IMG/VR virus record: IMGVR_UViG_2695420685_000015
Reading direction: 5' to 3' (one strand)
DNA length: 50,864 bases
DNA from: a virus
Taxonomy: Duplodnaviria; Heunggongvirae; Uroviricota; Caudoviricetes
The notes beneath the pieces are model-generated. The model was not told where the DNA came from, did no database searches, and saw nothing but the letters and a program-made list of their open reading frames with translations. Shown here one piece after another: positions 14,524-23,077 of this stretch (the stretch's first letter is position 1; every line of letters begins with the position of its first letter). Position numbers and translations under genes: made by a program.

Positions 14524-15753
14524 ATGATAATTGAACAAATAACCCCTTGCTCGGAGCTTGGAATGACTGATACCGCTTTTTCAAAATCGTTACAAAAAGA
14601 AGTCGATCCTGAGCAGTACTTGGCGCTAAAGAATTTAGATGACAGCTCGGTTCATGCTATTGCCCGTGACGATATCATCTGCCCCATTTGCAAAGTTGGA
14701 GGTGGTTCGTTCGTTAGAGCCACTAGGAATGGTGGCTATCACAAGAAGGCGCATTTCAGATTTACCGGTGAAGATGGTCAAGGCCATCATCCATCATGTG
14801 ATTTCTATGGAGATAGACTAACATCTGAGGTGAAGCAGCACCTTGTCTCATTCACAAAAGATCGAACAAAGTATTCGCAGGTAATACGAAAGCTGGTCTG
14901 TGCCGGCATACAGGAAGGGATATTTACTCAAGAAAAAATGTGGCAGATGAGGGAATGGTTCTTCAATAAGCGAAAGGATTCCACATTTGAAATATGGTTA
15001 GAAAGCGAGCATTTAGACTGGCTTTATTATATTAGTGGGTTACGTGATGCATATCTAGCATGGACAACTCCTGATATTCTACCTTTCGCGCCCATTCAGG
15101 TTACTGTGCCTGGTTTTTCTTGGAAGCGTGCGATTGACAAAGAGGTGCTAAGAGTTCACATCAAGACTCTCCAGCAATTGCGTGAAATTTCAGTCTCACA
15201 TAGAGACATTGCTGTAATCTTAGAACACATAAACAATAATCGTGACCGCACAATTCTCGATCCATCGCATTTGGAGGACGAGATAAGTAAGACCTGTAAG
15301 CTTACTAGTTTTGTGATGGGCAATTACATTGAGTTTCAGACAAAAACGGTTAGCGACAGAGCATACGGGGAAGCTAAGTTTCTGGCATTTGCAGCACTTT
15401 TGTTGTTCGTGTCAGATTGGGACCTCAACATTGCTATTGGTAAGTTTTCTAAGATTGCCAGAGTGAAGGAGGTTGATGACATGCTGGCTGGTAATTTCAT
15501 TGGTCTTAATCCTTACTTCCGATACGACCTGGCTAATGCAGTGAAGAGATTGCAGGATAACTGGCCGATTGAATACCAAGAGTTGGAGCATTGGAATGTT
15601 GAGAAATCCATGCGTGACGCATATGAAAAGTGGCGTGCGACAGAGCCTGAATTCGCTCCACCCCTATTGCCAGACTTGTATATTGCCAAACATGAGAAAG
15701 AAGTCGCACAAGACGAGCAAGTCAGGCAGTGGATTAAGAACGGGGATGTTTGA
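14524..15753 (+). CDS. hypothetical protein with Cys/His zinc-ribbon-like motif
   Basis: 409 aa; CPICK...HHPSCDFY cluster; start could instead be ATG 14563. Confidence 0.55.
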   Translation: MIIEQITPCSELGMTDTAFSKSLQKEVDPEQYLALKNLDDSSVHAIARDDIICPICKVGGGSFVRATRNGGYHKKAHFRFTGEDGQGHHPSCDFYGDRLTSEVKQHLVSFTKDRTKYSQVIRKLVCAGIQEGIFTQEKMWQMREWFFNKRKDSTFEIWLESEHLDWLYYISGLRDAYLAWTTPDILPFAPIQVTVPGFSWKRAIDKEVLRVHIKTLQQLREISVSHRDIAVILEHINNNRDRTILDPSHLEDEISKTCKLTSFVMGNYIEFQTKTVSDRAYGEAKFLAFAALLLFVSDWDLNIAIGKFSKIARVKEVDDMLAGNFIGLNPYFRYDLANAVKRLQDNWPIEYQELEHWNVEKSMRDAYEKWRATEPEFAPPLLPDLYIAKHEKEVAQDEQVRQWIKNGDV

Positions 15754-15884
15754 GTGTAATTAGCTTAATCAATCAGTTGATAATGGCGGTCACAATTTGA
15801 TTCTTTTCTATAAGAATCCGTTGATCGCCACTACTCTTCTTCCATACCTGCAATCACACCTTTAAATATCAATAGGTTAACGTT

Positions 15885-16640
15885 GTTTATACCAATAATA
15901 AAACAACTAAATAACAGATCAACGAAACGTCAACGCTTTCACCCGATTTGGTCTAAAAAATTGACGTATTCACACATCACTTCTTATACCCGTAATTCTA
16001 CGCAGCAGACAGCGCCACAGCGTCCAATTTTCACCACAGACGACCCAACACACTACCAACAAAAACACACGCTCAAAATCACTCCCATTGCGTTACATAA
16101 CTATATAAACAACTTATTTTCAGCTATAACAAAACAACTAAATAACACACATGCCATTCCCCAAAACAACCAACCTCTTTATGGCAGGCTACCGAAAAGA
16201 CCCACCTCTTCTCCCCAGGCTACCGGACAGCCAACCTAACTTTCACAGGCAATCCGAAAACATTCATACGCGCGATACCCACGACACGCCATTCCCCAAA
16301 CAGCGAAGAAACACCAGAATCACTGAAAACCCAACGAAGCCTGTAACCGCAAGGATTCTCTCAATCCCAAAAGACACGAAACATAACAATCACGGGAAAC
16401 GCCATTACCCAATACACGAATAACTACAAAAGCCCTTCACACACTCCAGACAAACAACTCAAACACAATAACGAAAGGATTCGCCCACCTGCCATTACTC
16501 CATACATGGAGAAGAACAATCACCAAAACGACGAGAACACCCCATAGAAGAACCACCGCAAAACGAACGAAACCACATACACCGACAGAGAAAACAACAC
16601 ACCCAATTCACCAACAGAAATAGTCGCCGTATAGAACATT
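15885..16640 (+). other. A+C-rich strand-asymmetric ORF-free tract (candidate noncoding RNA or structural DNA element)
   Basis: About 75-80% A+C on the + strand over ~760 bp in sampled 60-nt blocks; no ATG-initiated ORF; internal short repeats (aaaacaactaaataaca twice, ccattccccaaa twice). Confidence 0.6.
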
Positions 16641-16736
16641 CTGGAAGGAGTGAGCATTAACGCCTATAGAGAGGTTGAGACAGATAAAACACAACATGCA
16701 TAGCGAAGAAGCCAGGTATGTATAAGTGGGGAGGGA

Positions 16737-16759
16737 AGGAGGGGTGTCGCCTCCTTTTT
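16737..16759 (+). terminator. rho-independent terminator downstream of A+C-rich tract
   Basis: aggaggggtgtcgcctcct hairpin followed by tttt. Confidence 0.55.
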
Positions 16760-16822
16760 CGTATTTATTCAACTCCTGATTTTATCCCCCGTAACACCCC
16801 TACGGTCAGCCTTCGGTCCATA

Positions 16823-16960
16823 CAGGGAAAAGGCTGCATCCCGCTACAGAAACGGCTGGGTTGCCTTCGGGGAACGGCTGGAGGTTTTCAGGGAAACGGT
16901 CGAGTTGCCTGTGTGGATTTCGGGAGAAGGCTCGATGCCGGTTCAGGAACGGTGGCGTAC
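16823..16960. repeat. iteron-like direct repeat cluster (core GGAAACGGC)
   Basis: cagggaaaaggctgcatccc, cagaaacggctggg, gggaacggctgga, gggaaacggtcgag, gggagaaggctcga, caggaacggtggcg at about 21-30 bp spacing. Confidence 0.6.
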
Positions 16961-17257
16961 CGGTATAGCGAGAGGGAGAGTTGCGGCTACCCACCTGTAA
17001 TGTGCGGGAAGAAGAGAGGCGCTCACGTAGGCGGACTTGCTTACCGCTGGATTCCCTCTGAATGCCCAGCTACAGCGTAATTGTGCCAGACAGCCAACGG
17101 GTCACAATCGATTTCAGTAGGTTTTCGGGGAGAGGATTATTCTGCCCACCAGCCACTAAATCAGAATAATGTAAAAAGTGTACTCGGTACTGAACCTGAA
17201 AACTCACTACCAAAACCACATTCACCGGAATAAAATCCTTTTTCGCCTGTGCGTTAT

Positions 17258-17292
17258 TGCGATAATAACACCATCAAGAAAACATGTTGTTT
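17258..17292 (+). promoter_or_regulatory. class-A promoter/operator copy 6
   Basis: TGcGATAAT then AGAAAACATGTTGTTT at 17277-17292; first in-frame ATG 17284 lies inside the motif. Confidence 0.55.
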
Positions 17293-17304
17293 AAGGATTG
17301 CTTT

Positions 17305-17634
17305 ATGTTTGCAAATATCGACATCAACCAAATCAAGAAATTAACTCAAAAAGAGTTTGATCAGTTTTATGAGTTAGAAGGTTGGTCTTCCACTCTGATC
17401 AATTCGCGGTGGGTGCTTGAGCTGATGACTCGTGATGACGCACCTGCTTTGATGATTTGCGACATGGGTGAAGATGCTGACTTTATGGATATGAGCGAAT
17501 TTTGTGTGGACACATACAACCGCAGCCAGAAGTACTACTTCACATGCGATAGCGAAAATGACGTGATTTCTAAGGTCTATCTTCACCTCGTCCAGCATTG
17601 GGACGTTCAGGAGTTTCTTGAGATATTCGCGTAA
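17305..17634 (+). CDS. hypothetical protein
   Basis: Second in-frame ATG with AAGGAT RBS; 109 aa. Confidence 0.5.
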   Translation: MFANIDINQIKKLTQKEFDQFYELEGWSSTLINSRWVLELMTRDDAPALMICDMGEDADFMDMSEFCVDTYNRSQKYYFTCDSENDVISKVYLHLVQHWDVQEFLEIFA

Positions 17635-17740
17635 TCCCAACCAAAGCCAGCATTGCTGGCTTAATTTCTCTATAGCCGCTGGGAGGAACCTGCATATCGA
17701 TCATGCACCTGATCATTATGCTTTGTAGCCGTTTTCTTAC

Positions 17741-17776
17741 TGGTATTATTTACGCCATTGAGAAAACAAGTTGTTT
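17741..17776 (+). promoter_or_regulatory. class-A promoter/operator copy 7
   Basis: TGgTATTAT then AGAAAACAAGTTGTTT at 17761-17776. Confidence 0.55.
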
Positions 17777-17787
17777 ACGGAGTTGTG

Positions 17788-18099
17788 ATGAAAAAATCAT
17801 TGGTTCTTGGTCTGGACAAAGACCAGAAGAGAAAAGAGAAGCCTGCACTGGTTGCTCAATTAACTTTGCTAGACATCGTTGCCAATGGAACTTCTATTCG
17901 TCTGTTCCGTGAAACAGCGGTGTCTTTCGATAAAAACACCTTTACTCGTTATGTAATGAATGTTCGTCGCCAGCGTGGAAAAGGATGGGTGGCATTTCAA
18001 AGAATGTGGCCGGAACATCAGCTCGAACTGGCCTTGATGGAAGTTAACCGCGTGGCCCAGCAAGAAATTCAGAGAGCATCAGTGATGGCAATAGCCTGA
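17788..18099 (+). CDS. hypothetical protein
   Basis: ATG 17788 with ACGGAG RBS (track start 17758 is TTG inside the promoter); 103 aa. Confidence 0.5.
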   Translation: MKKSLVLGLDKDQKRKEKPALVAQLTLLDIVANGTSIRLFRETAVSFDKNTFTRYVMNVRRQRGKGWVAFQRMWPEHQLELALMEVNRVAQQEIQRASVMAIA

Positions 18100-18133
18100 T
18101 AATGTGCAAGTGGTAATTAGTCGACAGTACGAC

Positions 18134-18161
18134 AGCCCCGCCATCCTTACGGGGCTTTTTT
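18134..18161 (+). terminator. rho-independent terminator
   Basis: agccccgccatccttacggggct then tttttt. Confidence 0.7.
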
Positions 18162-18166
18162 GTATT

Positions 18167-18182
18167 GTAAGTACATACTTAC
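18167..18182. promoter_or_regulatory. class-B palindrome copy
   Basis: gtaagtacatacttac perfect palindrome, 44 nt upstream of ATG 18226. Confidence 0.45.
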
Positions 18183-18225
18183 GATCATAGAATATAAAAA
18201 TAACCAATACACTACGGAGAGTGAA

Positions 18226-18621
18226 ATGACCGTTAAACGCGAAAAACTGACAGTTGATGTTTACTATGCCTCTGAAACCGCCGAAGGTAAGAATGTGGCA
18301 AAAATCACCGTTGTTACGTACAACACCGAAACTGGTGCCGAAGTCCAGGCCAGTACGATCGTGCGTAAAGGTGATGCCTCCGGCGGCGAGTACGCGACTC
18401 AATACCAGTCCATTCTCGATGCAACTGACCCGCTGCTGCTGAAAATCGAGAACTACTTCCGCCAGGTTGATGAAGAGGTGTTTGAAACCATGATGAATAT
18501 GGTTAACACCGTATTCGCCTCCAGCCTGAACACCAGCACCACCTGGATTGGCCAGTACGGTCTGCGCATTACCTCTGGCATTCCTGCCGGCACCTTAATC
18601 CCTGAAAGCGTATTCGCTTAA
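18226..18621 (+). CDS. hypothetical protein
   Basis: ATG 18226 with GGAGAG RBS; 131 aa; terminator downstream. Confidence 0.5.
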   Translation: MTVKREKLTVDVYYASETAEGKNVAKITVVTYNTETGAEVQASTIVRKGDASGGEYATQYQSILDATDPLLLKIENYFRQVDEEVFETMMNMVNTVFASSLNTSTTWIGQYGLRITSGIPAGTLIPESVFA

Positions 18622-18631
18622 TCCTCTTTGA

Positions 18632-18658
18632 ATGGCGCGTAAACCGCGCCATTTTCTT
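18632..18658 (+). terminator. rho-independent terminator
   Basis: atggcgcgtaaaccgcgccat then tttctt. Confidence 0.65.
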
Positions 18659-18667
18659 ATGCCCGAT

Positions 18668-18730
18668 AACAATTTGTTTTCTGCCTTTATCTCGCTGCGA
18701 TAATTACAACAACAAGAAAACAACATGTTT
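18668..18730 (+). promoter_or_regulatory. class-A promoter/operator copy 8 (both palindrome copies)
   Basis: AACAATTTGTTTT at 18668-18680, TGcGATAAT, AGAAAACAACATGTTT at 18715-18730. Confidence 0.55.
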
Positions 18731-18749
18731 ACGCAGTGAGGATATGCTC

Positions 18750-19031
18750 ATGACTGATTTCACCATTACCACCAAAGCACAAAATGTATTCCTCGAATCA
18801 TGGCTGGACTTGCCGGAAACAGAACAGCAAGAAATGGATCATGTGGATTATGATGAGCAGGTAAGCACGCGATTCTTCCACTTTGAGGGATGCGTTTACG
18901 ACATTGCCGACTTCATGCGAGATGACCGCTTCCCTGAATGGCACGCAAGCTATCCACTAAACGCCTTTGCCATGCTGATGATCCGTGTGGATGATTCAGG
19001 GGATACCATCGACATCGGTCTGCTCCACTGA
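18750..19031 (+). CDS. hypothetical protein
   Basis: Second ATG (18750) has GAGGAT RBS at proper spacing; 93 aa. Confidence 0.5.
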   Translation: MTDFTITTKAQNVFLESWLDLPETEQQEMDHVDYDEQVSTRFFHFEGCVYDIADFMRDDRFPEWHASYPLNAFAMLMIRVDDSGDTIDIGLLH

Positions 19032-19081
19032 AGAATAAGGTCACCAATGCTGGTGGCCTTAAATGACCATCCTGCTTCCCT

Positions 19082-19160
19082 CAGGCTAAAAACACCAACC
19101 TCTTACCTCCAGGCAACCGACAAACCCACCTGTTCCCGTCCGGCTACCGCAACTTTCCAC
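19082..19160 (+). repeat. partial second copy of the A+C-rich tract
   Basis: caggctaaaaacaccaacctcttacctccaggcaaccgacaaacccacct...ggctaccgcaactttccac resembles 16185-16246 (caggctaccgaaaagacccacctcttctccccaggctaccggacagccaacctaactttcac). Confidence 0.5.
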
Positions 19161-19182
19161 TTTGACGCCTTATTCGTACAAC

Positions 19183-19215
19183 GATAATTAACACAAACAA
19201 GAAAACAATTTGTTA
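19183..19215 (+). promoter_or_regulatory. class-A promoter/operator copy 9
   Basis: GATAAT at 19183-19188 then AGAAAACAATTTGTTA at 19200-19215. Confidence 0.55.
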
Positions 19216-19235
19216 TTTACGATAAGGAATTAATC

Positions 19236-19718
19236 ATGAATTTTATCGCTACTGTAAACGCACCCGCACATGGCAATATCGCTGTAACGTTCTCTGACAT
19301 TGAAAAACGAGTACTTGGTGCATGGCGCGACAATGAGACGGTAGAACTGTCAGCACAAGAAAAATGCATTATTGCACGCGACATCATTGGCAATCGTCGT
19401 TACTCGCGGGTATTTGAGAAAGCGTATGTGGTAAATTCTGGATTCGGAACGTTCGTCTTTCCGGTGCGCTCCGGGCGATTCTGCCAGTCCAAGCTGATTG
19501 AGTTCGCTACGCAGATTTCTTTCTGGATTAAAACTCAATCGTCGTTCAAATTTTCCGACGATGAAGCAGTATCGCAGGGGATGCGGATCGCCAACAATGC
19601 GATTAAATGCAAAAACATTACGTATACCGCTGGCGTTGACACATGGAAACTGTTTTGCGCTAACTTTATGCTGAATGTATACGCAAGCAACCGCATCCAC
19701 ATCCTTGATGGCGTGTAA
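19236..19718 (+). CDS. hypothetical protein
   Basis: ATG with AAGGAAT RBS; 160 aa; terminator-like hairpin agggccagaaacggccct downstream. Confidence 0.55.
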   Translation: MNFIATVNAPAHGNIAVTFSDIEKRVLGAWRDNETVELSAQEKCIIARDIIGNRRYSRVFEKAYVVNSGFGTFVFPVRSGRFCQSKLIEFATQISFWIKTQSSFKFSDDEAVSQGMRIANNAIKCKNITYTAGVDTWKLFCANFMLNVYASNRIHILDGV

Positions 19719-19726
19719 CTGAGAAG

Positions 19727-19856
19727 AGGGCCAGAAACGGCCCTTTATCTATAGCCACCAGCTGCCGCAGGGAAATTTTCAGAAACGGCGAGGAAAGCAT
19801 TCATGAGCCGACGGGAAACGGCCAGGATTTTTTCGGGAAACGGCTGCATTCGCCTT
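19727..19856. repeat. second iteron-like repeat cluster (GGAAACGGC family)
   Basis: ccagaaacggccc, cagggaaattttcagaaacggcgagg, cgggaaacggccagg, cgggaaacggctgcattcgcc; last unit closely matches cagggaaaaggctgcatccc at 16824. Confidence 0.55.
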
Positions 19857-20304
19857 TATGTAGAAAAAACATCGGGAAGCTGGTGGAATCCAACCAGCGG
19901 TTGTCGGACAGGTGAGCGGGGAAAATTATGATGACTTTCGTCGCCTGAGACATCCAGATTTCTTTCGTAGCATAATCACATACGTGATTAAGTGGTGTGA
20001 TTATGTGAAAAATCACGCGCACATAATACGCGAGCGGATACGGAACAAAACAAAATGCCGATCCGCGCCGACAAATAAACGCGGATCATAAAGCAAGACT
20101 AAAAGCCAATGATTAACCATACTCTATAGCGCAATATAACGCGTTTTAAGCGCGTTAATGTGTTAAGTAATGGGTATGTACTGGTAAGGATATAAAAGCG
20201 CGTCTATGGCGTTATTTTGGCGCTTATTTTTATGTTGTTGGAGTGAGTTAAAGACAATAAAAAACGCGCTAATGATGGCGCGTTATGGTGGGAGTATTGG
20301 AAAC

Positions 20305-20335
20305 GAAAAAAGCGCCCATAGTGGGCGCTCGATTT
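20305..20335 (-). terminator. terminator with conserved AGCGCCCA-yrT-GGGCGCT hairpin
   Basis: aaaaaagcgcccatagtgggcgctcgatttta; A/T runs on both sides; same stem sequence recurs at 20806-20824. Confidence 0.6.
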
Positions 20336-20565
20336 TATTTGTGTAAACTGATTTTAAATCCCATTTCTACAAACGCTTTTAACATTAAAAATATATCAGC
20401 GTCGTTCACGTCTGCTTTTTTTCGCTCCTGGTCGCTCAATAAGTCAATTTTGCGCGTCGTTTCATCTATAAGCTCGACTGCGCGCCCAGCGTAACCAGCG
20501 ATCCCAGCGATGCGATTAACATAATATTCATTATGGACGTTAACGCCAGCGATAAGAACAAACAT
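20335..20565 (-). CDS. hypothetical protein
   Basis: ATG with AAGGAG RBS; 76 aa; AT-rich local composition. Confidence 0.55.
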   Translation of the reverse strand: MFVLIAGVNVHNEYYVNRIAGIAGYAGRAVELIDETTRKIDLLSDQERKKADVNDADIFLMLKAFVEMGFKISLHK

Positions 20566-20584
20566 GATTAAGCTCCTTAAAAAA

Positions 20585-20788
20585 TTAAATAGAATTTTGA
20601 AGTTTTCCGATTAATGCGCTTAAACGTAAGTATTCACGTTTGCGCTTGCAATCTCGCTTGCTGTTAAGCAAATCAGAAAACGTAAAATTTAATTGGTCGC
20701 GTTGCGCGATCAAATCATCGATTAATTCCAGTTTATAAGCGCGATACTTTGCGCGATATTCCGCGCGGATCTTGTCATAGCTGACCAT
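20585..20788 (-). CDS. hypothetical small basic protein
   Basis: Start moved to second ATG (20788) with AAAGGAG RBS because the track N-terminus runs through the conserved hairpin; 67 aa. Confidence 0.5.
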   Translation of the reverse strand: MVSYDKIRAEYRAKYRAYKLELIDDLIAQRDQLNFTFSDLLNSKRDCKRKREYLRLSALIGKLQNSI

Positions 20789-20805
20789 CTTTAAAGCTCC
20801 TTTAA

Positions 20806-20824
20806 AGCGCCCACTATGGGCGCT
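20806..20824 (-). repeat. second copy of conserved hairpin AGCGCCCAyTrTGGGCGCT
   Basis: agcgcccactatgggcgct between genes 20837-21487 and 20585-20788. Confidence 0.5.
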
Positions 20825-20836
20825 TGATTCCATTTA

Positions 20837-21487
20837 TTACGCTTTGAAAGCATCAGCTAAATAATTGTAGAAATCATTTTTAATGAAGCGATATTGCTGA
20901 GTACCAGCTTTCGCGCTCCCAGCTCCTTTGACTTTTTCAACAAGTCCAAGACGTTCGCAAAGATTGATCAACTGGTTGGCTTGAGTATAGCCAGCGTCCA
21001 ATTTAATTTCACACGCTTTTTTAGCTTCATTCATTAAATCGAAAACAGCGCCATTGGTGAACGTGTCGATCTCGTCGTTAATCATATCGATTAAAGCGAA
21101 TACACGAGATCCTGACATATCAGCGATGGAATAAACGCATTTACCAGATTTAATTGATTTAACCAGATAAACCAGTTTTTCCAGAGAATAACTATTAGTC
21201 ATTGCATCACGGAAAAATACTTCTGGCGCTTGTTTGCTTGCTTTAATCGCATAGTAGAAAACAGAGCATAATTTTTCGTCTTCTACTGCGTTTACGACGT
21301 TGTTGATGAAGTAAGCAAGTTTAGTGGTCGCAGCTTGCATATTTGCTTTGTCTGCTTTAGTGTGCGTACCATTTTTATAATGTTCGTTATATGTTTGAGT
21401 TGCCAGATCTGCTTTTTCGCGCAGTTCATCGGATACAATGGAAGCAGCTTCAATGATGGATTTTTTAGAAATGATAATGTTAGCCAT
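20837..21487 (-). CDS. hypothetical protein, possible C-terminal winged-helix DNA-binding domain
   Basis: ATG with AAGGAAAAA RBS; 216 aa; C-terminal LINLCERLGLVEKVKGAGSAKAGTQQYRFIKN looks winged-helix-like (weak). Confidence 0.5.
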   Translation of the reverse strand: MANIIISKKSIIEAASIVSDELREKADLATQTYNEHYKNGTHTKADKANMQAATTKLAYFINNVVNAVEDEKLCSVFYYAIKASKQAPEVFFRDAMTNSYSLEKLVYLVKSIKSGKCVYSIADMSGSRVFALIDMINDEIDTFTNGAVFDLMNEAKKACEIKLDAGYTQANQLINLCERLGLVEKVKGAGSAKAGTQQYRFIKNDFYNYLADAFKA

Positions 21488-21734
21488 GATAATTTTTCCT
21501 TATGTAAATTTAAAATTTATTGTCGTTAGCGTCTTCGCTTTCGACGAGTTCAATTATCGATACGCGAAAAAAGATTGCAAGTGTTTTTTTTAAAATTTTT
21601 TGCAGGGATGAAAGTCCTAGAAATAAAAGCGAGATCGTCGAAGGTGTTCCCTAAATAAATAATCGATTGCGGCTTTAGACCTTATATATATTTAGGTTAT
21701 TTGATTTGTAGATATAAAGAAGTGATGTGAAAAA

Positions 21735-21758
21735 TAATAACCGGACTTAGCCGGTTAT
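21735..21758 (-). terminator. rho-independent terminator (minus strand)
   Basis: aataaccggacttagccggttatt with T-run on the minus strand. Confidence 0.6.
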
Positions 21759-21771
21759 TAACCTTATAGAT

Positions 21772-22080
21772 TTATTGAACAGACTCTACAGCCTTACGAT
21801 TGGTGTCAAATAGCGCATCAACGAACTGTGCCGATGACTCGCTAGATTCGCAATCCAACATTGCCCTTTCTTCATTTGCCACTTTCTTACACAGTTCCAC
21901 ATTCTCACCTATCGCTTTTCCTGCTTTTACGGCTGCCGAAAATTGATACATGCAAACTGATACATTCTGAGACGTTGAGCACACGTCATTCATCAGCGAC
22001 TGAATGACAGGCTTATAGTCCATTGCATTTGCCGCAACTGAGCAAAGTAAAAATAATGGTGGTAACAATATCGATTTCAT
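21772..22080 (-). CDS. predicted secreted/periplasmic protein
   Basis: N-terminal signal peptide MKSILLPPLFLLCSVAANA; 102 aa. Confidence 0.55.
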   Translation of the reverse strand: MKSILLPPLFLLCSVAANAMDYKPVIQSLMNDVCSTSQNVSVCMYQFSAAVKAGKAIGENVELCKKVANEERAMLDCESSESSAQFVDALFDTNRKAVESVQ

Positions 22081-22083
22081 AAC

Positions 22084-22608
22084 TCAAAAAGGCAAAATTC
22101 GTTCAACCCAATCGAACAAAACAACTATTTTTCTACCGTTCTCGACACGTAGTGTAACCTGACAAGCATCTGCGCCTGCTGACACCCCCTCAATTTCACG
22201 GCCATCCGCCATGTACACCCTTATAGATTTGTTTGCTTTGTAGGCTTGGTTGCAAATTGCAAAAAAATCGCGGCGTGATGGCCGATTATCGACATAATCA
22301 GGGTGAACTGTTAGTCGACCTTTGAAATCGTGAGCGATACTGTCAACCACACCTGATTCAATTGTACTAATGCGTTCAAGTGGGAGCCTTATACGATTTT
22401 CTTTGTCAAAAGGGGCTGGGCAAAGGTCAACTTTGTTACGAGATGGCATGAGGCCATAAACGTACATGCAAAACGCCTGGCCATCTTCGAGAGTGACCCT
22501 TACAGGAATTTGTTCTCTGCGCCAGAACATCAGTAGTTTTTCAACGTTAGTGTAATCTCGCGGCCAGAGTTCAGCTTGGATACCGTAGGTAATATCTTTG
22601 GTTGTCAT
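22084..22608 (-). CDS. hypothetical protein
   Basis: Start set at MTTKD ATG 5 nt after upstream stop (track start 22686 overlaps upstream gene); 174 aa. Confidence 0.5.
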   Translation of the reverse strand: MTTKDITYGIQAELWPRDYTNVEKLLMFWRREQIPVRVTLEDGQAFCMYVYGLMPSRNKVDLCPAPFDKENRIRLPLERISTIESGVVDSIAHDFKGRLTVHPDYVDNRPSRRDFFAICNQAYKANKSIRVYMADGREIEGVSAGADACQVTLRVENGRKIVVLFDWVERILPF

Positions 22609-22612
22609 GTCA

Positions 22613-23077
22613 TCACAGAGTTGTTGGCAGAATGTCGATGTCACCAGAATTGCTGGTGAACACCCTGAACGCTTTTGTGTCTCCATTCTTCAGAGTCGTT
22701 TCTCGCTCTTGACGAGCGGGGTTTAGAGCACATAAACCTGCACCTTCAAGAGATGCACCCACAATTAATTCTCCGGCATTTAAATGGAAAGTCGCTTTTT
22801 CGCCTGTAGCCAGTTTTGCGACAGTTTCGCCGTTGATGAAAATGGAAGCATCACATCCAGCTCCTACAAAACCTGTGTCTCTCATTACCACCAACGTAGC
22901 TGGCGCTGCGCTTTGATACTTGAACACTTTGGCCTGCGGTGCTGGTTTGGCGTCATGGATTGATATTGGGCGTGATTGGCACGCGGTAAGCATCAACACT
23001 GGTAACGTTAGTAGAGGGAGAAGCGAGTATTTCATGATAGTTTTAGAACAGAAAGTGAACAGTATGGGAGACTTCAT
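22613..23077 (-). CDS. predicted lipoprotein
   Basis: MKYSLLPLLTLPVLMLTAC signal peptide with LTAC lipobox; start may be ATG 23035 rather than 23077. Confidence 0.6.
   Translation of the reverse strand: MKSPILFTFCSKTIMKYSLLPLLTLPVLMLTACQSRPISIHDAKPAPQAKVFKYQSAAPATLVVMRDTGFVGAGCDASIFINGETVAKLATGEKATFHLNAGELIVGASLEGAGLCALNPARQERETTLKNGDTKAFRVFTSNSGDIDILPTTL

What the first reader, a model, noticed from the sequence alone, without database searches (positions are those of the whole stretch)
19860..21487. AT-rich leftward three-gene cassette with duplicated hairpin and a repeat-dense convergence zone
19900-20330 is a convergent intergenic zone dense in short inverted and direct repeats (aatcacatacgtgatt, cacataat/tgattatgtg, and GCGCGTTAA/AACGCGCT variants). 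The adjoining genes 20335-21487 are visibly more AT-rich than the rest of the element, and the identical hairpin AGCGCCCAyTrTGGGCGCT occurs twice (20313, 20806). This suggests a separately acquired module with its own regulatory hairpins, or an origin or regulatory hub. The 216-aa protein has a winged-helix-like C-terminus.
Basis: seen in the sequence. Interest (0 to 1): 0.5.

Follow-up and report, generated by a model that had tools for sequence, protein, structure and literature searches.

The report
Terminator-bracketed gene slot beside conserved repeats
This is an old, core part of SSU5-type phage-plasmids, not a recent import: a DNA-binding-protein gene followed by a swappable small-gene slot bracketed by two copies of one terminator hairpin, next to a deeply conserved 600-bp non-coding stretch full of repeats whose role is still unknown.

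Summary
The window is an SSU5-like phage-plasmid (relatives include pHCM2 and Y. pestis pMT1). The cassette at 20335-21487 is the most AT-rich 1.15 kb of the window. The hairpin AGCGCCCA-N3-TGGGCGCT occurs exactly twice. The 216-aa protein models with a C-terminal winged helix.

The "separately acquired module" reading fails. The 216-aa gene, its AT-richness, its promoter and the ~600-bp non-coding gap recur in over 800 plasmids, and the gene-plus-gap arrangement persists in relatives at about 31% protein identity.

The hairpins are intrinsic terminators: the outer one strong, the inner one followed by only a short U stretch. They bracket a polymorphic slot that is empty or holds a 67-aa gene, a 76-aa gene, both, or two 76-family paralogs. 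Hairpin number usually equals cassette number plus one. The stem is essentially invariant, while the 3-nt loop varies and occurs in both orientations.

The gap holds back-to-back terminators and two conserved repeat families. One is GGGAAACGG(CTG), on the + strand only, 22-bp phased, with a second cluster at 16823-16960. The other is AAACGCGC. No Rfam family, conserved RNA fold, DnaA box or IHF site was found. In a Cyrano lysogen the cassette is transcriptionally silent. I infer cis-acting protein-binding DNA, but an origin or a + strand RNA role is not excluded.

The parts
19236..19718 (+). 160-aa gene (phrog_1641, unknown function). It is the last gene of the rightward five-gene unit that converges on the zone.
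   Evidence: ORF list; PHROG hit 1.6e-96; annotated in all relatives.
19727..19752 (+). Intrinsic terminator of the 160-aa gene: AGGGCC-AGAAAC-GGCCCT followed by TTATCTAT. The U tract is short and interrupted, so it is probably leaky.
   Evidence: Fold -16.0 kcal/mol, z -4.5; conserved helix in RNAalifold; the stem changes between lineages (GGGCC/GGCCC against GGGGC/GCCCC) while pairing is kept.
19767..19890 (+). Array of iteron-like units (t)CgGGAAACGGCTG..TTGCC. GAAACGG cores lie at 19782, 19815 and 19837 (the last two exactly 22 bp apart), plus one in the terminator loop at 19734. Degenerate copies lie at 19768 and 19873.
   Evidence: 4 GAAACGG within 120 bp, never seen in 300 shuffles. There are 1-4 copies on the + strand and 0 on the - strand in all 73 distinct relatives' gaps. 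Nearly invariant in alignments. Retained at the same place and in the same orientation in relatives at 31-62% protein identity.
19970..20032 (.). Inverted repeats specific to the E. coli lineage: CATAATCACA (19971), TGTGATTATG (19996), CACATAAT (20020) and AATCAC-N4-GTGATT (19974-19989). Only TGTGATTATGTGAA is shared with other lineages.
   Evidence: The alignment shows this middle part diverged between lineages.
20059..20088 (-). GC-rich hairpin GATCCGCG..CGCGGATC with a short T tail on the minus strand. Its structure is not conserved outside the E. coli lineage.
   Evidence: -18.6 kcal/mol, z -3.6. Other lineages have a different sequence here.
20132..20219 (.). AAACGCGC-type repeats in both orientations (28-nt imperfect inverted repeat 20132-20159 / 20192-20219) flanking the conserved core GTAATGGGTATGTAC (20167-20181). 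In other lineages the left arm is a variable-copy 11-bp tandem repeat, CGCGCTAAAAC (2-5 copies).
   Evidence: (D3, I2). The block AAACGCGCTGTAAGCG is conserved in K. oxytoca, Pectobacterium and the 31%-identity relative L104.
20207..20235 (+). Small + strand terminator-like hairpin (GGCGT-N7-GCGCT) followed by TATTTTT. It marks the right end of any rightward transcript through the gap.
   Evidence: Five pairs are kept in 12 lineages, with C-G to U-G changes that pair only on the + strand. GGCGCTTATTTTT is nearly invariant and present in L104.
20252..20284 (-). Back-up minus-strand terminator T2: AACGCGC-loop-GCGCGTT followed by TTTTTATTGTC. It is probably the ancestral terminator of the 216-aa gene.
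   Evidence: (-10.2 kcal/mol, z -3.8). The loop varies while the stem is kept. In L104 this hairpin directly follows the 216-like gene and the AGCGCCCA hairpin is absent.
20300..20329 (-). Outer copy of the conserved hairpin (stem-loop 20311-20329) followed by UUUUUUCGUUUC on the minus strand. It is a strong intrinsic terminator of the leftward operon and is also terminator-like on the + strand.
   Evidence: The tail TTTTTTCGTTTC is identical in all 10 relatives printed.
20335..20565 (-). 76-aa gene (phrog_1585), one of the two families that occupy the slot. The AF2 model has low confidence (pLDDT 59) with beta-alpha-beta-beta-alpha-alpha-beta order.
   Evidence: (374 plasmid records).
20585..20788 (-). 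67-aa gene (phrog_6145; the PHROG label 'MIT family metal ion transporter' is implausible for a 67-aa helical protein). This is the second slot family.
   Evidence: (517 plasmid records).
20806..20824 (-). Inner copy of the hairpin, 13 nt after the 216-aa stop codons and immediately before the Shine-Dalgarno sequence of the 67-aa gene (GCGC-UUUAAAGGAGC). The short U stretch suggests a leaky terminator or an mRNA 3'-end protector.
   Evidence: It sits 15-25 nt after the 216-aa gene (mostly 17) in nearly all of the ~97 loci; three loci differ, two with truncated matches and one lacking the inner copy.
20837..21487 (-). 216-aa gene (phrog_1513). The protein has an N-terminal long helical hairpin, a helical middle part and a C-terminal winged-helix domain. 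The putative recognition helix, Y167-TQANQLI, is conserved down to 22-30% identity.
21553..21580 (-). Sigma-70-type promoter of the 216-aa operon: TTGCAA, 16 nt, GATAAT.
   Evidence: The -35 and -10 blocks are conserved in relatives down to 62% protein identity. The upstream 102-aa gene ends in its own terminator at 21735-21760.
21611..21690 (-). Conserved upstream boxes ATATATAAGG, TTTATTTAGGGAACACCTTCGA and TTTATTTCTAGGACTTT. These are candidate operator or activator sites; the second contains GGGAAC.
   Evidence: Alignment of 80 upstream regions; sequence.
16823..16963 (+). Second cluster of the same 22-bp unit, with starts at 16823, 16845, 16867, 16889, 16920 and 16942. It lies upstream of the five-gene unit whose 3' end abuts the first cluster.
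   Evidence: It is conserved in Cyrano, PhiR41_1, SSU5, pUTAK-6-1 and K. oxytoca. These two clusters are the only ones in a complete 111-kb relative.

Best explanation
The flagged region is the downstream half of an ancestral transcription unit of SSU5-type phage-plasmids, plus the conserved non-coding module that insulates it from the converging unit.

Shown:
- A conserved sigma-70-type promoter (21580-21553) lies upstream of a 216-aa winged-helix protein gene.
- Thirteen nt after its stop codons sits a GC-rich hairpin with only a short U stretch. Then come one or more small genes, then the same hairpin with a U6 tract, backed by a second terminator (20263-20284).
- Across about 97 related loci the space between the hairpins is a polymorphic slot. 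It can be empty (one hairpin), or hold a 67-aa gene, a 76-aa gene, both, or two 76-family paralogs (three hairpins).
- In the window's arrangement, what is missing from the 67/76 junction is exactly the palindrome.
- The stem has no mismatch in all but two of the ~170 copies scored, while the 3-nt loop varies and appears in both orientations.
- The cassette is AT-rich in all relatives and is at the detection floor in transcriptomes of an E. coli LF82 (Cyrano) lysogen.

Inferred:
- The inner hairpin is a leaky terminator or 3'-end stabiliser that sets a high ratio of 216-aa to small-protein expression. The outer hairpin ends the operon.
- The ~21-25-bp identical hairpin-plus-flank acts as the short homology at which related phage-plasmids gain, lose and duplicate small-gene cassettes by unequal or illegitimate recombination. 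Palindrome instability explains the loop flips and the precise loss.
- The operon is a lytic-cycle or otherwise repressed function.
- The adjacent 615-bp gap is cis-acting DNA. It has a terminator for each converging unit plus two repeat families (22-bp-phased GGGAAACGGCTG units, AAACGCGC units) that serve as binding sites for a phage-plasmid protein.
- The co-inherited 216-aa winged-helix protein is the most economical candidate for that protein.
For: Identity of the element and synteny.

Hairpin positions, tails and number against cassette number.

Only two slot protein families. Record counts are 815 (216-aa), 517 (67-aa) and 374 (76-aa).

Terminator character.

Promoter and conserved upstream boxes.

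Winged helix. The recognition helix is conserved to 22-30% identity.

Silence in the lysogen: S1 table of PMC9928086, with CYRAN_112 at 4.99 and CYRAN_113 at 5.93 against a prophage median of 9.8.

AT-richness conserved in relatives.

Gap conservation and repeat statistics.

Co-inheritance of the gap with the 216-like gene at 31-49% identity:
- Pectobacterium keeps one TTCGGGAAACGGC unit.
- L104 keeps five GGAAACGG in the same orientation.
- K. oxytoca keeps one slightly diverged unit, CGGGATACGGCTGG.
- In Pectobacterium and L104 the AGCGCCCA hairpin is absent while the repeats persist. This separates the two features.

No conserved RNA fold other than terminators. No Rfam family.
Against: Nothing here shows termination, read-through or protein binding directly.

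Invariance of the hairpin stem at 49-62% protein identity is stronger than a plain terminator needs. It could mean sequence-specific recognition by a protein or recombinase rather than short-homology recombination.

Assigning the repeats to the 216-aa protein rests only on co-inheritance and on the protein being a winged helix. The repeats also flank the rightward five-gene unit, so one of its products, or the neighbouring FljA-like RNA-binding protein, could be the ligand.

All GAAACGG copies are in the sense orientation of the rightward unit. A + strand terminator closes the gap at 20235, and long hairpins in 20118-20240 fold 6-15 kcal/mol better on the + strand in 9 of 10 lineages. All of this fits an RNA role as well.

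The lysogen silence comes from one strain and from a relative, not from this element.
Confidence: 0.55

Rival explanations
1. The gap (19719-20334), alone or together with the second cluster at 16823-16963, is a replication origin or copy-control locus. On this reading the 22-bp-phased GGGAAACGGCTG units are iterons, the 11-bp AAACGCGC repeats form a bent or unwinding region, and a phage-plasmid protein acts as initiator. That protein could be the 216-aa winged helix or a product of the five-gene unit the arrays flank, as in P1 or F, where iterons flank the rep gene.
For: - Direct repeats of about 19-22 bp lie in exact 22-bp register in two clusters, all in one orientation.
- These are the only such clusters in a complete 111-kb relative, and they differ from the RepB-type iterons TATGCTGTCAGCGGT.
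- The 11-bp tandem repeats vary in copy number.
- Terminators insulate the gap on both sides.
- An adjacent gene for a DNA-binding fold is silent in the lysogen.
- The element encodes its own DnaE, a DnaB-like helicase, a ligase and RNase H, but no lytic initiator is annotated.
Against: - There is no DnaA box within one mismatch of the consensus and no IHF consensus site. GATC density is not raised (2 in 615 bp against 4.2 per kb). The most AT-rich 40 bp reaches only 77.5% A+T.
- The 216-aa model has a single winged helix preceded by a coiled-coil-like hairpin. No significant match to Rep-type initiators was found.
- Spacing of the units is not kept in distant relatives; L104 has 7, 19, 48 and 49 nt.
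- GC skew of the complete relative turns about 5 kb away, at a divergence of transcription units.
Confidence: 0.15
2. The gap is transcribed rightward, either as a long 3' UTR of the five-gene unit or as a separate RNA of about 220-500 nt ending at 20235. The GGGAAACGG copies would then be RNA motifs that bind or titrate an RNA-binding protein. One candidate is the FljA-like Hfq-fold repressor encoded at 22084-22686. The cluster at 16823-16963 would be the matching 5'-leader sites.
For: - All motif copies, in 73 distinct gaps and in the second cluster, are on the sense strand of the rightward unit.
- The 160-aa gene's terminator has a weak U tract.
- A conserved + strand terminator with + strand-only wobble pairs closes the gap.
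- 20118-20240 folds better on the + strand in 9 of 10 lineages.
- The FljA-like gene (Flag1_repress 2.5e-84) is kept in phage-plasmids of Klebsiella and Y. pestis, and in Pectobacterium and K. oxytoca relatives. That these two hosts lack flagella is from my own knowledge. If so, the protein needs a target other than flagellin mRNA.
- The E. coli fliC 5' leader shares the 12-mer TGAGCCGACGGG with the unit at 19804.
Against: - RNAalifold finds no conserved structure beyond terminators, and there is no Rfam hit.
- A Y. pestis small-RNA survey lists two pMT1 sRNAs and both map elsewhere (PMC3770706).
- The conserved unit is 19-22 nt long and helically phased, which is more typical of DNA sites.
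- The motifs are not consistently presented in hairpin loops (read from the sequence).
- About 0.4 chance 12-mer matches between the fliC leader and a 50.9-kb window are expected, and three unrelated 11-mer matches occur elsewhere. That lead is therefore weak.
- Non-E. coli lineages have AACCGAAGGG at that unit.
Confidence: 0.15
3. The hairpin AGCGCCCA-N3-TGGGCGCT is a site for a site-specific recombinase, so the small genes are true mobile cassettes in the manner of an integron.
For: - Hairpin number tracks cassette number. Empty slots exist: one hairpin in nine loci, and two hairpins 43 bp apart in K. oxytoca.
- The stem is essentially invariant while the central 3 nt vary and invert.
- The element carries a tyrosine integrase elsewhere.
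Against: - No recombinase gene lies next to the slot.
- A 3-nt spacer between 8-bp arms does not resemble the 6-8-bp overlap regions of tyrosine-recombinase core sites or the imperfect, bulged attC fold (established knowledge, not tested here).
- Only two protein families ever occupy the slot, unlike a cassette pool.
- The hairpin occurs nowhere else in the 111-kb genome.
- The outer copy has a textbook U6 terminator tail.
Confidence: 0.07
4. One reading: 20335-21487 is a recently and separately acquired foreign module, as marked by its low GC.
For: The lowest GC in the window is here. The small genes vary between relatives.
Against: The 216-aa gene, its promoter and the gap are present and syntenic in every relative examined, down to 31% identity. 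Low GC is shared by all orthologues. No mobility gene, tRNA or flanking direct repeat bounds the block.
Confidence: 0.03

Closest known systems
Intrinsic (Rho-independent) terminators, including leaky intra-operon terminators and the terminator-bounded 'moron' units of temperate phages
   Same: GC-rich 8-9-bp stem with a 3-nt loop, placed 5-13 nt after a stop codon. The outer copy carries a U6 tract and a second terminator backs it up. Accessory genes are bounded by terminators and vary between otherwise syntenic genomes.
   Different: The same 19-nt sequence is reused at every boundary and is held almost invariant across genera, which ordinary terminators are not. The inner copy has only 3-5 U and abuts the next gene's ribosome-binding site. 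The slot genes lack their own promoter and are not expressed in the lysogen, whereas classical morons are.
REP/BIME-type intercistronic palindromes (for example malE-malF) that protect upstream mRNA from 3' exonucleases
   Same: An identical stable palindrome repeated at gene 3' ends inside an operon, which could raise the yield of the upstream gene relative to downstream genes.
   Different: There are only two to three copies, confined to this one locus of one phage-plasmid family. The stem is perfect and there is no chromosomal family.
Iteron arrays of plasmid and phage origins and their control loci (P1 oriR/incA, F ori2/incC, R6K 22-bp iterons, lambda ori)
   Same: About 19-22-bp direct repeats in exact 22-bp register, in two clusters in the same orientation that flank a gene block.
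   Different: The element's known RepB-type replicon has other iterons. There are no DnaA or IHF sites and no marked AT-rich unwinding element next to the repeats. No initiator has been identified. Spacing is not kept in distant relatives.
Winged-helix DNA-binding proteins of the ArsR/SmtB, MarR and TubR/AspA kinds
   Different: There is no sequence-level membership in any Pfam, NCBIfam or PDB family. The protein has an extra N-terminal long helical hairpin and a helical middle domain. The family is tiny: 23 representative clusters among 1.84 billion proteins.
Protein-titrating RNAs with repeated GGA-containing motifs (CsrB/RsmZ type)
   Same: Many copies of a short G/A-rich motif, all on one strand, lying between a weak and a stronger terminator.
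   Different: The conserved core is GAAACGG rather than GGA in a hairpin loop. The units are 19-22 nt long and helically phased. No RNA has been detected and there is no covariation support.

Membership tests
Intrinsic terminator (outer hairpin, 20300-20329, minus strand) | Stable GC-rich stem-loop (stem of at least 5 bp, loop of 3-8 nt) immediately followed by a U-rich tract, placed downstream of a stop codon | tested here: met
   9-bp stem, 3-nt loop, tail UUUUUUCGUUUC, 5 nt after the stop of the 76-aa gene. Fold -15.6 kcal/mol, z -4.2.
Intrinsic terminator (inner hairpin, 20806-20824, minus strand) | U-rich tract (at least 5 U within 8 nt) after the stem | tested here: inconclusive
   The window has UUUAAAGG (3 U). 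Relatives have UUUUAAGG, UAUUUUUAAGG or UUAUUCAAAA. The scan scores the site on the + strand, not the - strand.
Intrinsic terminator (both hairpins) | Transcript 3' ends form at the site in vivo or in vitro | not testable with these tools
   Needs Term-seq, 3'-RACE or an in-vitro termination assay.
   GC 0.387 against 0.470, the lowest in the window.
   The 216-aa gene is in 815 plasmid records and is syntenic in all loci examined. Only the 67-aa and 76-aa genes are patchy.
   Orthologues are AT-rich relative to their own flanks in 72 of 86 loci and in distant relatives.
Iteron-type replication origin | Several direct repeats of about 17-22 bp with helical phasing | tested here: met
   Units at 19811 and 19833, and at 16823, 16845, 16867 and 16889, in 22-bp register. 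Enrichment over shuffles.
Iteron-type replication origin | Adjacent AT-rich unwinding element and host-factor sites (DnaA box, IHF) | tested here: not met
   No DnaA box within one mismatch of the consensus and no IHF consensus. The maximum is 77.5% A+T over 40 bp.
Iteron-type replication origin | Cognate initiator protein that binds the repeats; autonomous replication of the cloned fragment | not testable with these tools
   The 216-aa protein has a winged helix, but binding and replication need experiments.
Integron-like gene cassette array | Adjacent integrase gene and attC-type imperfect, bulged recombination sites at cassette 3' ends | tested here: not met
   No recombinase gene lies within the locus. 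The repeat is a perfect 8-bp palindrome with a 3-nt spacer.
Known RNA family (Rfam 15) | Covariance-model match at or near the gathering score | tested here: not met
   The best hits in 18500-23000 are isrK at 19.9 bits (gathering 50, E 0.4) over the two terminators and bxd_5 at 20.4 bits (gathering 50, E 0.11) inside the 216-aa gene. There are none in 15600-17300.
Winged helix-turn-helix DNA-binding fold (216-aa protein) | Three-helix bundle plus beta-hairpin wing, recognised by structure comparison | tested here: met

The most novel reading that the evidence does not exclude
The two GGGAAACGGCTG arrays (16823-16963 and 19767-19890) and the AAACGCGC block are the cis half of an undescribed control circuit shared by all SSU5/pHCM2/pMT1-type phage-plasmids. 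Two forms are possible. In one, they are a second, lytic-phase origin or handcuffing pair read by the orphan 216-aa winged-helix protein. In the other, they are sense-strand RNA operators or sponges for the FljA-like Hfq-fold protein, which these elements retain even in hosts (Klebsiella, Y. pestis) that, to my knowledge, lack flagella. In either form the terminator-bracketed slot supplies interchangeable small modulators (67-aa or 76-aa) of that circuit.
Probability: 0.2. Interest if true: 0.7.

Novelty: new variant of a known kind. Interest (0 to 1): 0.4.

Why it matters
SSU5-type phage-plasmids are common in clinical Enterobacteriaceae: over 800 PLSDB records carry this locus, including S. 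Typhi pHCM2 and Y. pestis pMT1. The papers I reached describe neither their lysis-lysogeny control nor a lytic-replication origin.

This locus offers three concrete handles:
- an orphan winged-helix protein that is silent in the lysogen;
- a deeply conserved non-coding module with two strand-specific repeat families, which is an obvious candidate for its binding site or for an origin;
- a natural terminator-bracketed slot whose alleles (empty, 67, 76, 67+76, 76+76') form a ready-made comparative series for finding out what the small proteins do.

The invariant palindrome with a recurrently flipping loop is also a clean natural example of palindrome dynamics at a module boundary.

If the region is only terminators plus a regulator, the finding is ordinary. 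Even then, the 'foreign module' reading should be dropped from any annotation.

Tried and rejected
- Family searches. Pfam, NCBIfam and PADLOC gave no significant family for the 216-, 67-, 76- or 160-aa proteins. PHROGs gave only unknown-function families plus one implausible label.
- Structure-based searches. PDB sequence searches were empty. The BFVD fold search had no hit at E <= 0.001. The afdb50 library was unavailable. The AF2 model of the 76-aa protein was too poor (pLDDT 59) to justify a fold search.
- Known RNA families. The weak isrK match (E 0.4) covers only the two tandem terminators.
- A conserved structured RNA in the gap. RNAalifold on 73 and on 12 sequences kept only terminators. 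The long hairpins seen in single sequences use different registers in different lineages.
- Plasmid Rep iterons. Rejected, because the RepB-type gene of a complete relative is flanked by a different repeat and GATC/AGATCC boxes.
- Published sRNAs. The two pMT1 sRNAs of Yan et al. 2013 lie near ymt and the plasmid end.
- GC skew as an origin marker. It follows gene orientation.
- The fliC-leader 12-mer identity. Kept only as a weak lead after calculating about 0.4 expected chance matches.
- Sigma-70 promoters inside the gap. The two candidates at 19905-19932 and 19947-19976 are not conserved outside the E. coli lineage. The shared TGTGATTAT (an extended -10-like string) is missing in the pKPHS1 lineage.
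- Literature. A 2026 preprint on phage-plasmid heteroresistance could not be opened. The K. pneumoniae p2 paper has no gene-level data.

Full report
**What the element is**

Megablast of 19700-21800 finds Escherichia phage-plasmids CMS-2020a, PhiR41_1 and Cyrano at 93-97% identity and Salmonella phage SSU5 at 83%. In PLSDB the stretch matches 812 plasmids of Klebsiella, Escherichia, Enterobacter, Yersinia pestis, Salmonella (pHCM2), Citrobacter and Cronobacter, nearly all non-mobilizable. A 99%-identical complete relative, pUTAK-6-1 (111 kb), carries a RepB-type replicon, its own replication genes, and siphovirus structural genes. The window is therefore an SSU5-type phage-plasmid.

**Checking the observation**

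The sequence and ORF list show the following layout:
- a rightward 160-aa gene ending at 19718;
- a 615-bp ORF-free gap (19719-20334);
- three leftward genes: 76 aa (20335-20565), 67 aa (20585-20788, as annotated in relatives) and 216 aa (20837-21487).

GC content. The three genes have GC 0.387 against a window mean of 0.470 (sd 0.029). The fifteen lowest-GC 1153-bp windows of the whole 50.8 kb all lie here (profiles).

The hairpin. It is at 20311-20329 and 20806-20824, with identical stems and loops TAG and CTA, which are reverse complements. There is no other copy in the window or in the 111-kb relative.

The short repeats.

**The 'acquired module' reading fails**

tblastn finds the 216-aa gene in 815 plasmid records. 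In every annotated relative it lies between the FljA-like gene and a gap of about 590-640 bp that faces the 160-aa gene. A survey of about 97 loci confirms this.

More distant relatives keep the arrangement:
- K. oxytoca pCAV1335-118, 49% protein identity;
- Pectobacterium Drgb1, 39%;
- two metagenomic contigs at 31%.

All have the gene followed by a 590-745-bp non-coding gap and converging small genes. Most also have the same upstream neighbours (two ParB_N genes, a DEAD helicase).

The orthologues are AT-rich relative to their own surroundings: SSU5 0.397 against 0.514, K. oxytoca 0.389 against 0.501, L104 0.414 against 0.545, and 72 of 86 loci overall. Low GC is thus an old, maintained trait.

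The promoter TTGCAA-16-GATAAT (21580-21553) and three upstream boxes are conserved down to 62%-identity relatives.

**What the hairpins are**

Read on the minus (sense) strand, the outer copy is GCGCCCA-CUA-UGGGCGC followed by UUUUUUCGUUUC in every relative printed. That is a canonical intrinsic terminator.

About 25 nt further on lies a second terminator, AACGCGC-loop-GCGCGTT followed by UUUUUAUUGUC. Its loop varies while its stem is kept. In the 31%-identity relative L104 this second hairpin directly follows the 216-like gene and the AGCGCCCA hairpin is absent. It is therefore probably the ancestral terminator, with the AGCGCCCA hairpin and its slot a later addition of the SSU5 group proper.

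The inner copy sits 13 nt after the 216-aa stop codons. It is followed by only 3-5 U and then directly by the next gene's Shine-Dalgarno sequence. I read it as a leaky terminator or 3'-end protector. This is inference.

**The slot**

Offsets below are from the end of the 216-aa gene.

| Slot content | Hairpin positions | Loci |
|---|---|---|
| Empty | one hairpin | nine loci |
| 67-aa gene | +17 and +264 | many |
| 76-aa gene | +17 and +288/291 (+324 for a 51%-identical variant in pMT1 and pHCM2) | many |
| 67-aa and 76-aa genes | +17 and +513, none between | window type |
| Two 76-family paralogs | three hairpins, +17, +287, +558 | L037, L042 |
| Gene-sized first interval, content not examined; second interval about 30 bp | +25, +272, +319 | 62%-identity relatives |
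| Empty, 43 bp between hairpins | two full copies plus a degenerate third | K. oxytoca |

Only two protein families were found in the slots of loci with 67-100% protein identity to the query. They are present in 517 records (67-aa) and 374 records (76-aa). Hairpin number is therefore usually cassette number plus one.

In the window type, the 67/76 junction reads TAA-TTTTTTAAGGAGCTTAATC-ATG. This is what follows the hairpin in 76-only genomes, so exactly the palindrome is missing.

Across about 170 copies the stem has no mismatch in all but two. The loop, by contrast, is CTA, TAG, TTA, TAA, CAA, TTG, TCA, TGA, ATA and others, with each variant also seen as its reverse complement.

Recurrent loop inversion and precise loss are what palindromes do through strand-switching or slippage. 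That is established knowledge, not tested here. The simplest account is that the 21-25 bp of identical hairpin plus flank serves as short homology for unequal exchange between related phage-plasmids. A dedicated recombinase is not excluded, but none is adjacent, and the site geometry is unlike known core sites.

**Expression**

In the published LF82 transcriptomes the Cyrano orthologues of the 76-aa and 216-aa genes are at the detection floor (4.99 and 5.93; prophage median 9.8). They are absent from the list of genes expressed in the lysogen (PMC9928086). The cassette is therefore repressed or silenced in lysogeny in that relative.

**The gap**

An alignment of 73 distinct versions shows five conserved blocks: 19719-19860, 20016-20090, 20166-20182, 20190-20235 and 20252-20334.

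Block 1 holds the 160-aa gene's terminator and units of consensus (t)CgGGAAACGGCTG..TTGCC.
- Two units are exactly 22 bp apart (19811, 19833) and others lie nearby.
- GAAACGG occurs 1-4 times on the + strand and never on the - strand in all 73 gaps. Four copies within 120 bp never arose in 300 shuffles.
- The same unit forms a six-copy cluster at 16823-16963 with spacings of 22, 22, 22, 31 and 22 nt. That cluster is conserved in SSU5, Cyrano, PhiR41_1 and K. oxytoca.
- These two clusters are the only ones in the 111-kb relative. The RepB-type replicon uses a different iteron.
- The motif survives at the same place and in the same orientation in the 62%, 39% and 31% relatives, and in slightly diverged form (CGGGATACGG) in the 49% K. 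oxytoca relative.

The right half carries AAACGCGC-type repeats in both orientations. In some lineages this includes a variable-copy 11-bp tandem repeat. There is also a small + strand terminator at 20207-20235 whose wobble pairs work only on the + strand.

Several searches were negative:
- No Rfam family matches.
- RNAalifold retains only the terminators.
- A Y. pestis sRNA survey reports nothing here.
- No DnaA box within one mismatch of the consensus, IHF site, GATC clustering or strongly AT-rich stretch is present.

**Interpretation and its limits**

The terminator and slot architecture is well supported by comparative data. The function of the gap is not.

I favour cis-acting protein-binding DNA because the units are long, phased and co-inherited with a winged-helix protein. 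That protein's putative recognition helix is conserved to 22-30% identity. In Pectobacterium and L104 the repeats persist where the AGCGCCCA hairpin does not.

Two rivals remain open:
- An origin or copy-control locus: iteron-like arrays flanking a gene block, as in P1 or F.
- A rightward non-coding RNA or 3' UTR whose sense-strand motifs bind an RNA-binding protein. One candidate is the neighbouring FljA-like repressor, which these elements keep even in Klebsiella and Y. pestis; that these hosts lack flagella is from my own knowledge.

A 12-nt identity between the unit at 19804 and the E. coli fliC leader is suggestive, but it is within chance expectation for a window of this size.

**Verdict**

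The acquisition hypothesis is refuted. The hairpins are explained as terminators and cassette boundaries. The convergence zone is a genuinely conserved, uncharacterised cis module. Interest is moderate.

Noticed in passing
window 15760-17100: A ~1.3-kb ORF-poor region. On the + strand, 15990-16610 is 40% A, 33% C, 12% G and 14.5% T. A + strand terminator-like hairpin follows (GGAGGGGTGTCGCCTCC then TTTTTCG, about 16740-16768). G-poor stretches also occur in Cyrano, PhiR41_1, SSU5 and pUTAK-6-1. There is no Rfam hit. It could be a long C/A-rich non-coding RNA or a DNA element.
   Followed up: partly
window 16823-16963: Six copies of the 22-bp unit CAGGGAAACGGCTG.., with spacings of 22, 22, 22, 31 and 22 nt. 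This is the same motif as in the convergence zone 2.9 kb away. The two clusters flank the five-gene rightward unit 17284-19718, all in the same orientation.
   Followed up: partly
window 22084-22686 (-): FljA-like protein (Pfam Flag1_repress 2.5e-84, with a weak Hfq-like C-terminal match). It is conserved next to the 216-aa gene in phage-plasmids of Klebsiella and Y. pestis, which to my knowledge lack flagella, and in Pectobacterium and K. oxytoca relatives. Its target there is unlikely to be host flagellin mRNA.
   Followed up: partly
window 21772-22080 (-): 102-aa ORF with a signal-peptide-like N-terminus (phrog_9536), inserted between the FljA-like gene and the 216-aa promoter. It has its own terminator at 21735-21760. 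The corresponding position is empty in Cyrano, PhiR41_1, SSU5, pMT1 and pHCM2 (pKPHS1 has a 59-aa ORF there), so this is a second variable spot.
   Followed up: no
window 19804-19815 (+): The 12-mer TGAGCCGACGGG is identical to part of the E. coli K-12 fliC 5' leader (GAGCCGACGGGTGGAAACCC). It is the longest exact match between that leader and the window, but about 0.4 such matches are expected by chance.
   Followed up: yes
L070 and L008 (relatives), homologous to window ~20125-20150: Variable-copy 11-bp tandem repeat CGCGCTAAAAC (2-5 copies) with A-tracts phased at about one helical turn. The E. coli lineage has a single diverged copy.
   Followed up: no
window 14524-15753 (+): 409-aa ORF (phrog_12525, unknown function, no Pfam hit). 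It replaces the metG/apbC region found at the corresponding place in pUTAK-6-1, Cyrano and PhiR41_1, so the left flank of the non-coding region is a variable cargo site.
   Followed up: no
L011 12600-14640 (pUTAK-6-1, outside the window's homologous span): The RepB-type replicon has at least 11 TATGCTGTCAGCGGT iterons downstream of rep, and AGATCC/GATC-rich boxes upstream. I used it only as a contrast to the GGGAAACGG units.
   Followed up: yes
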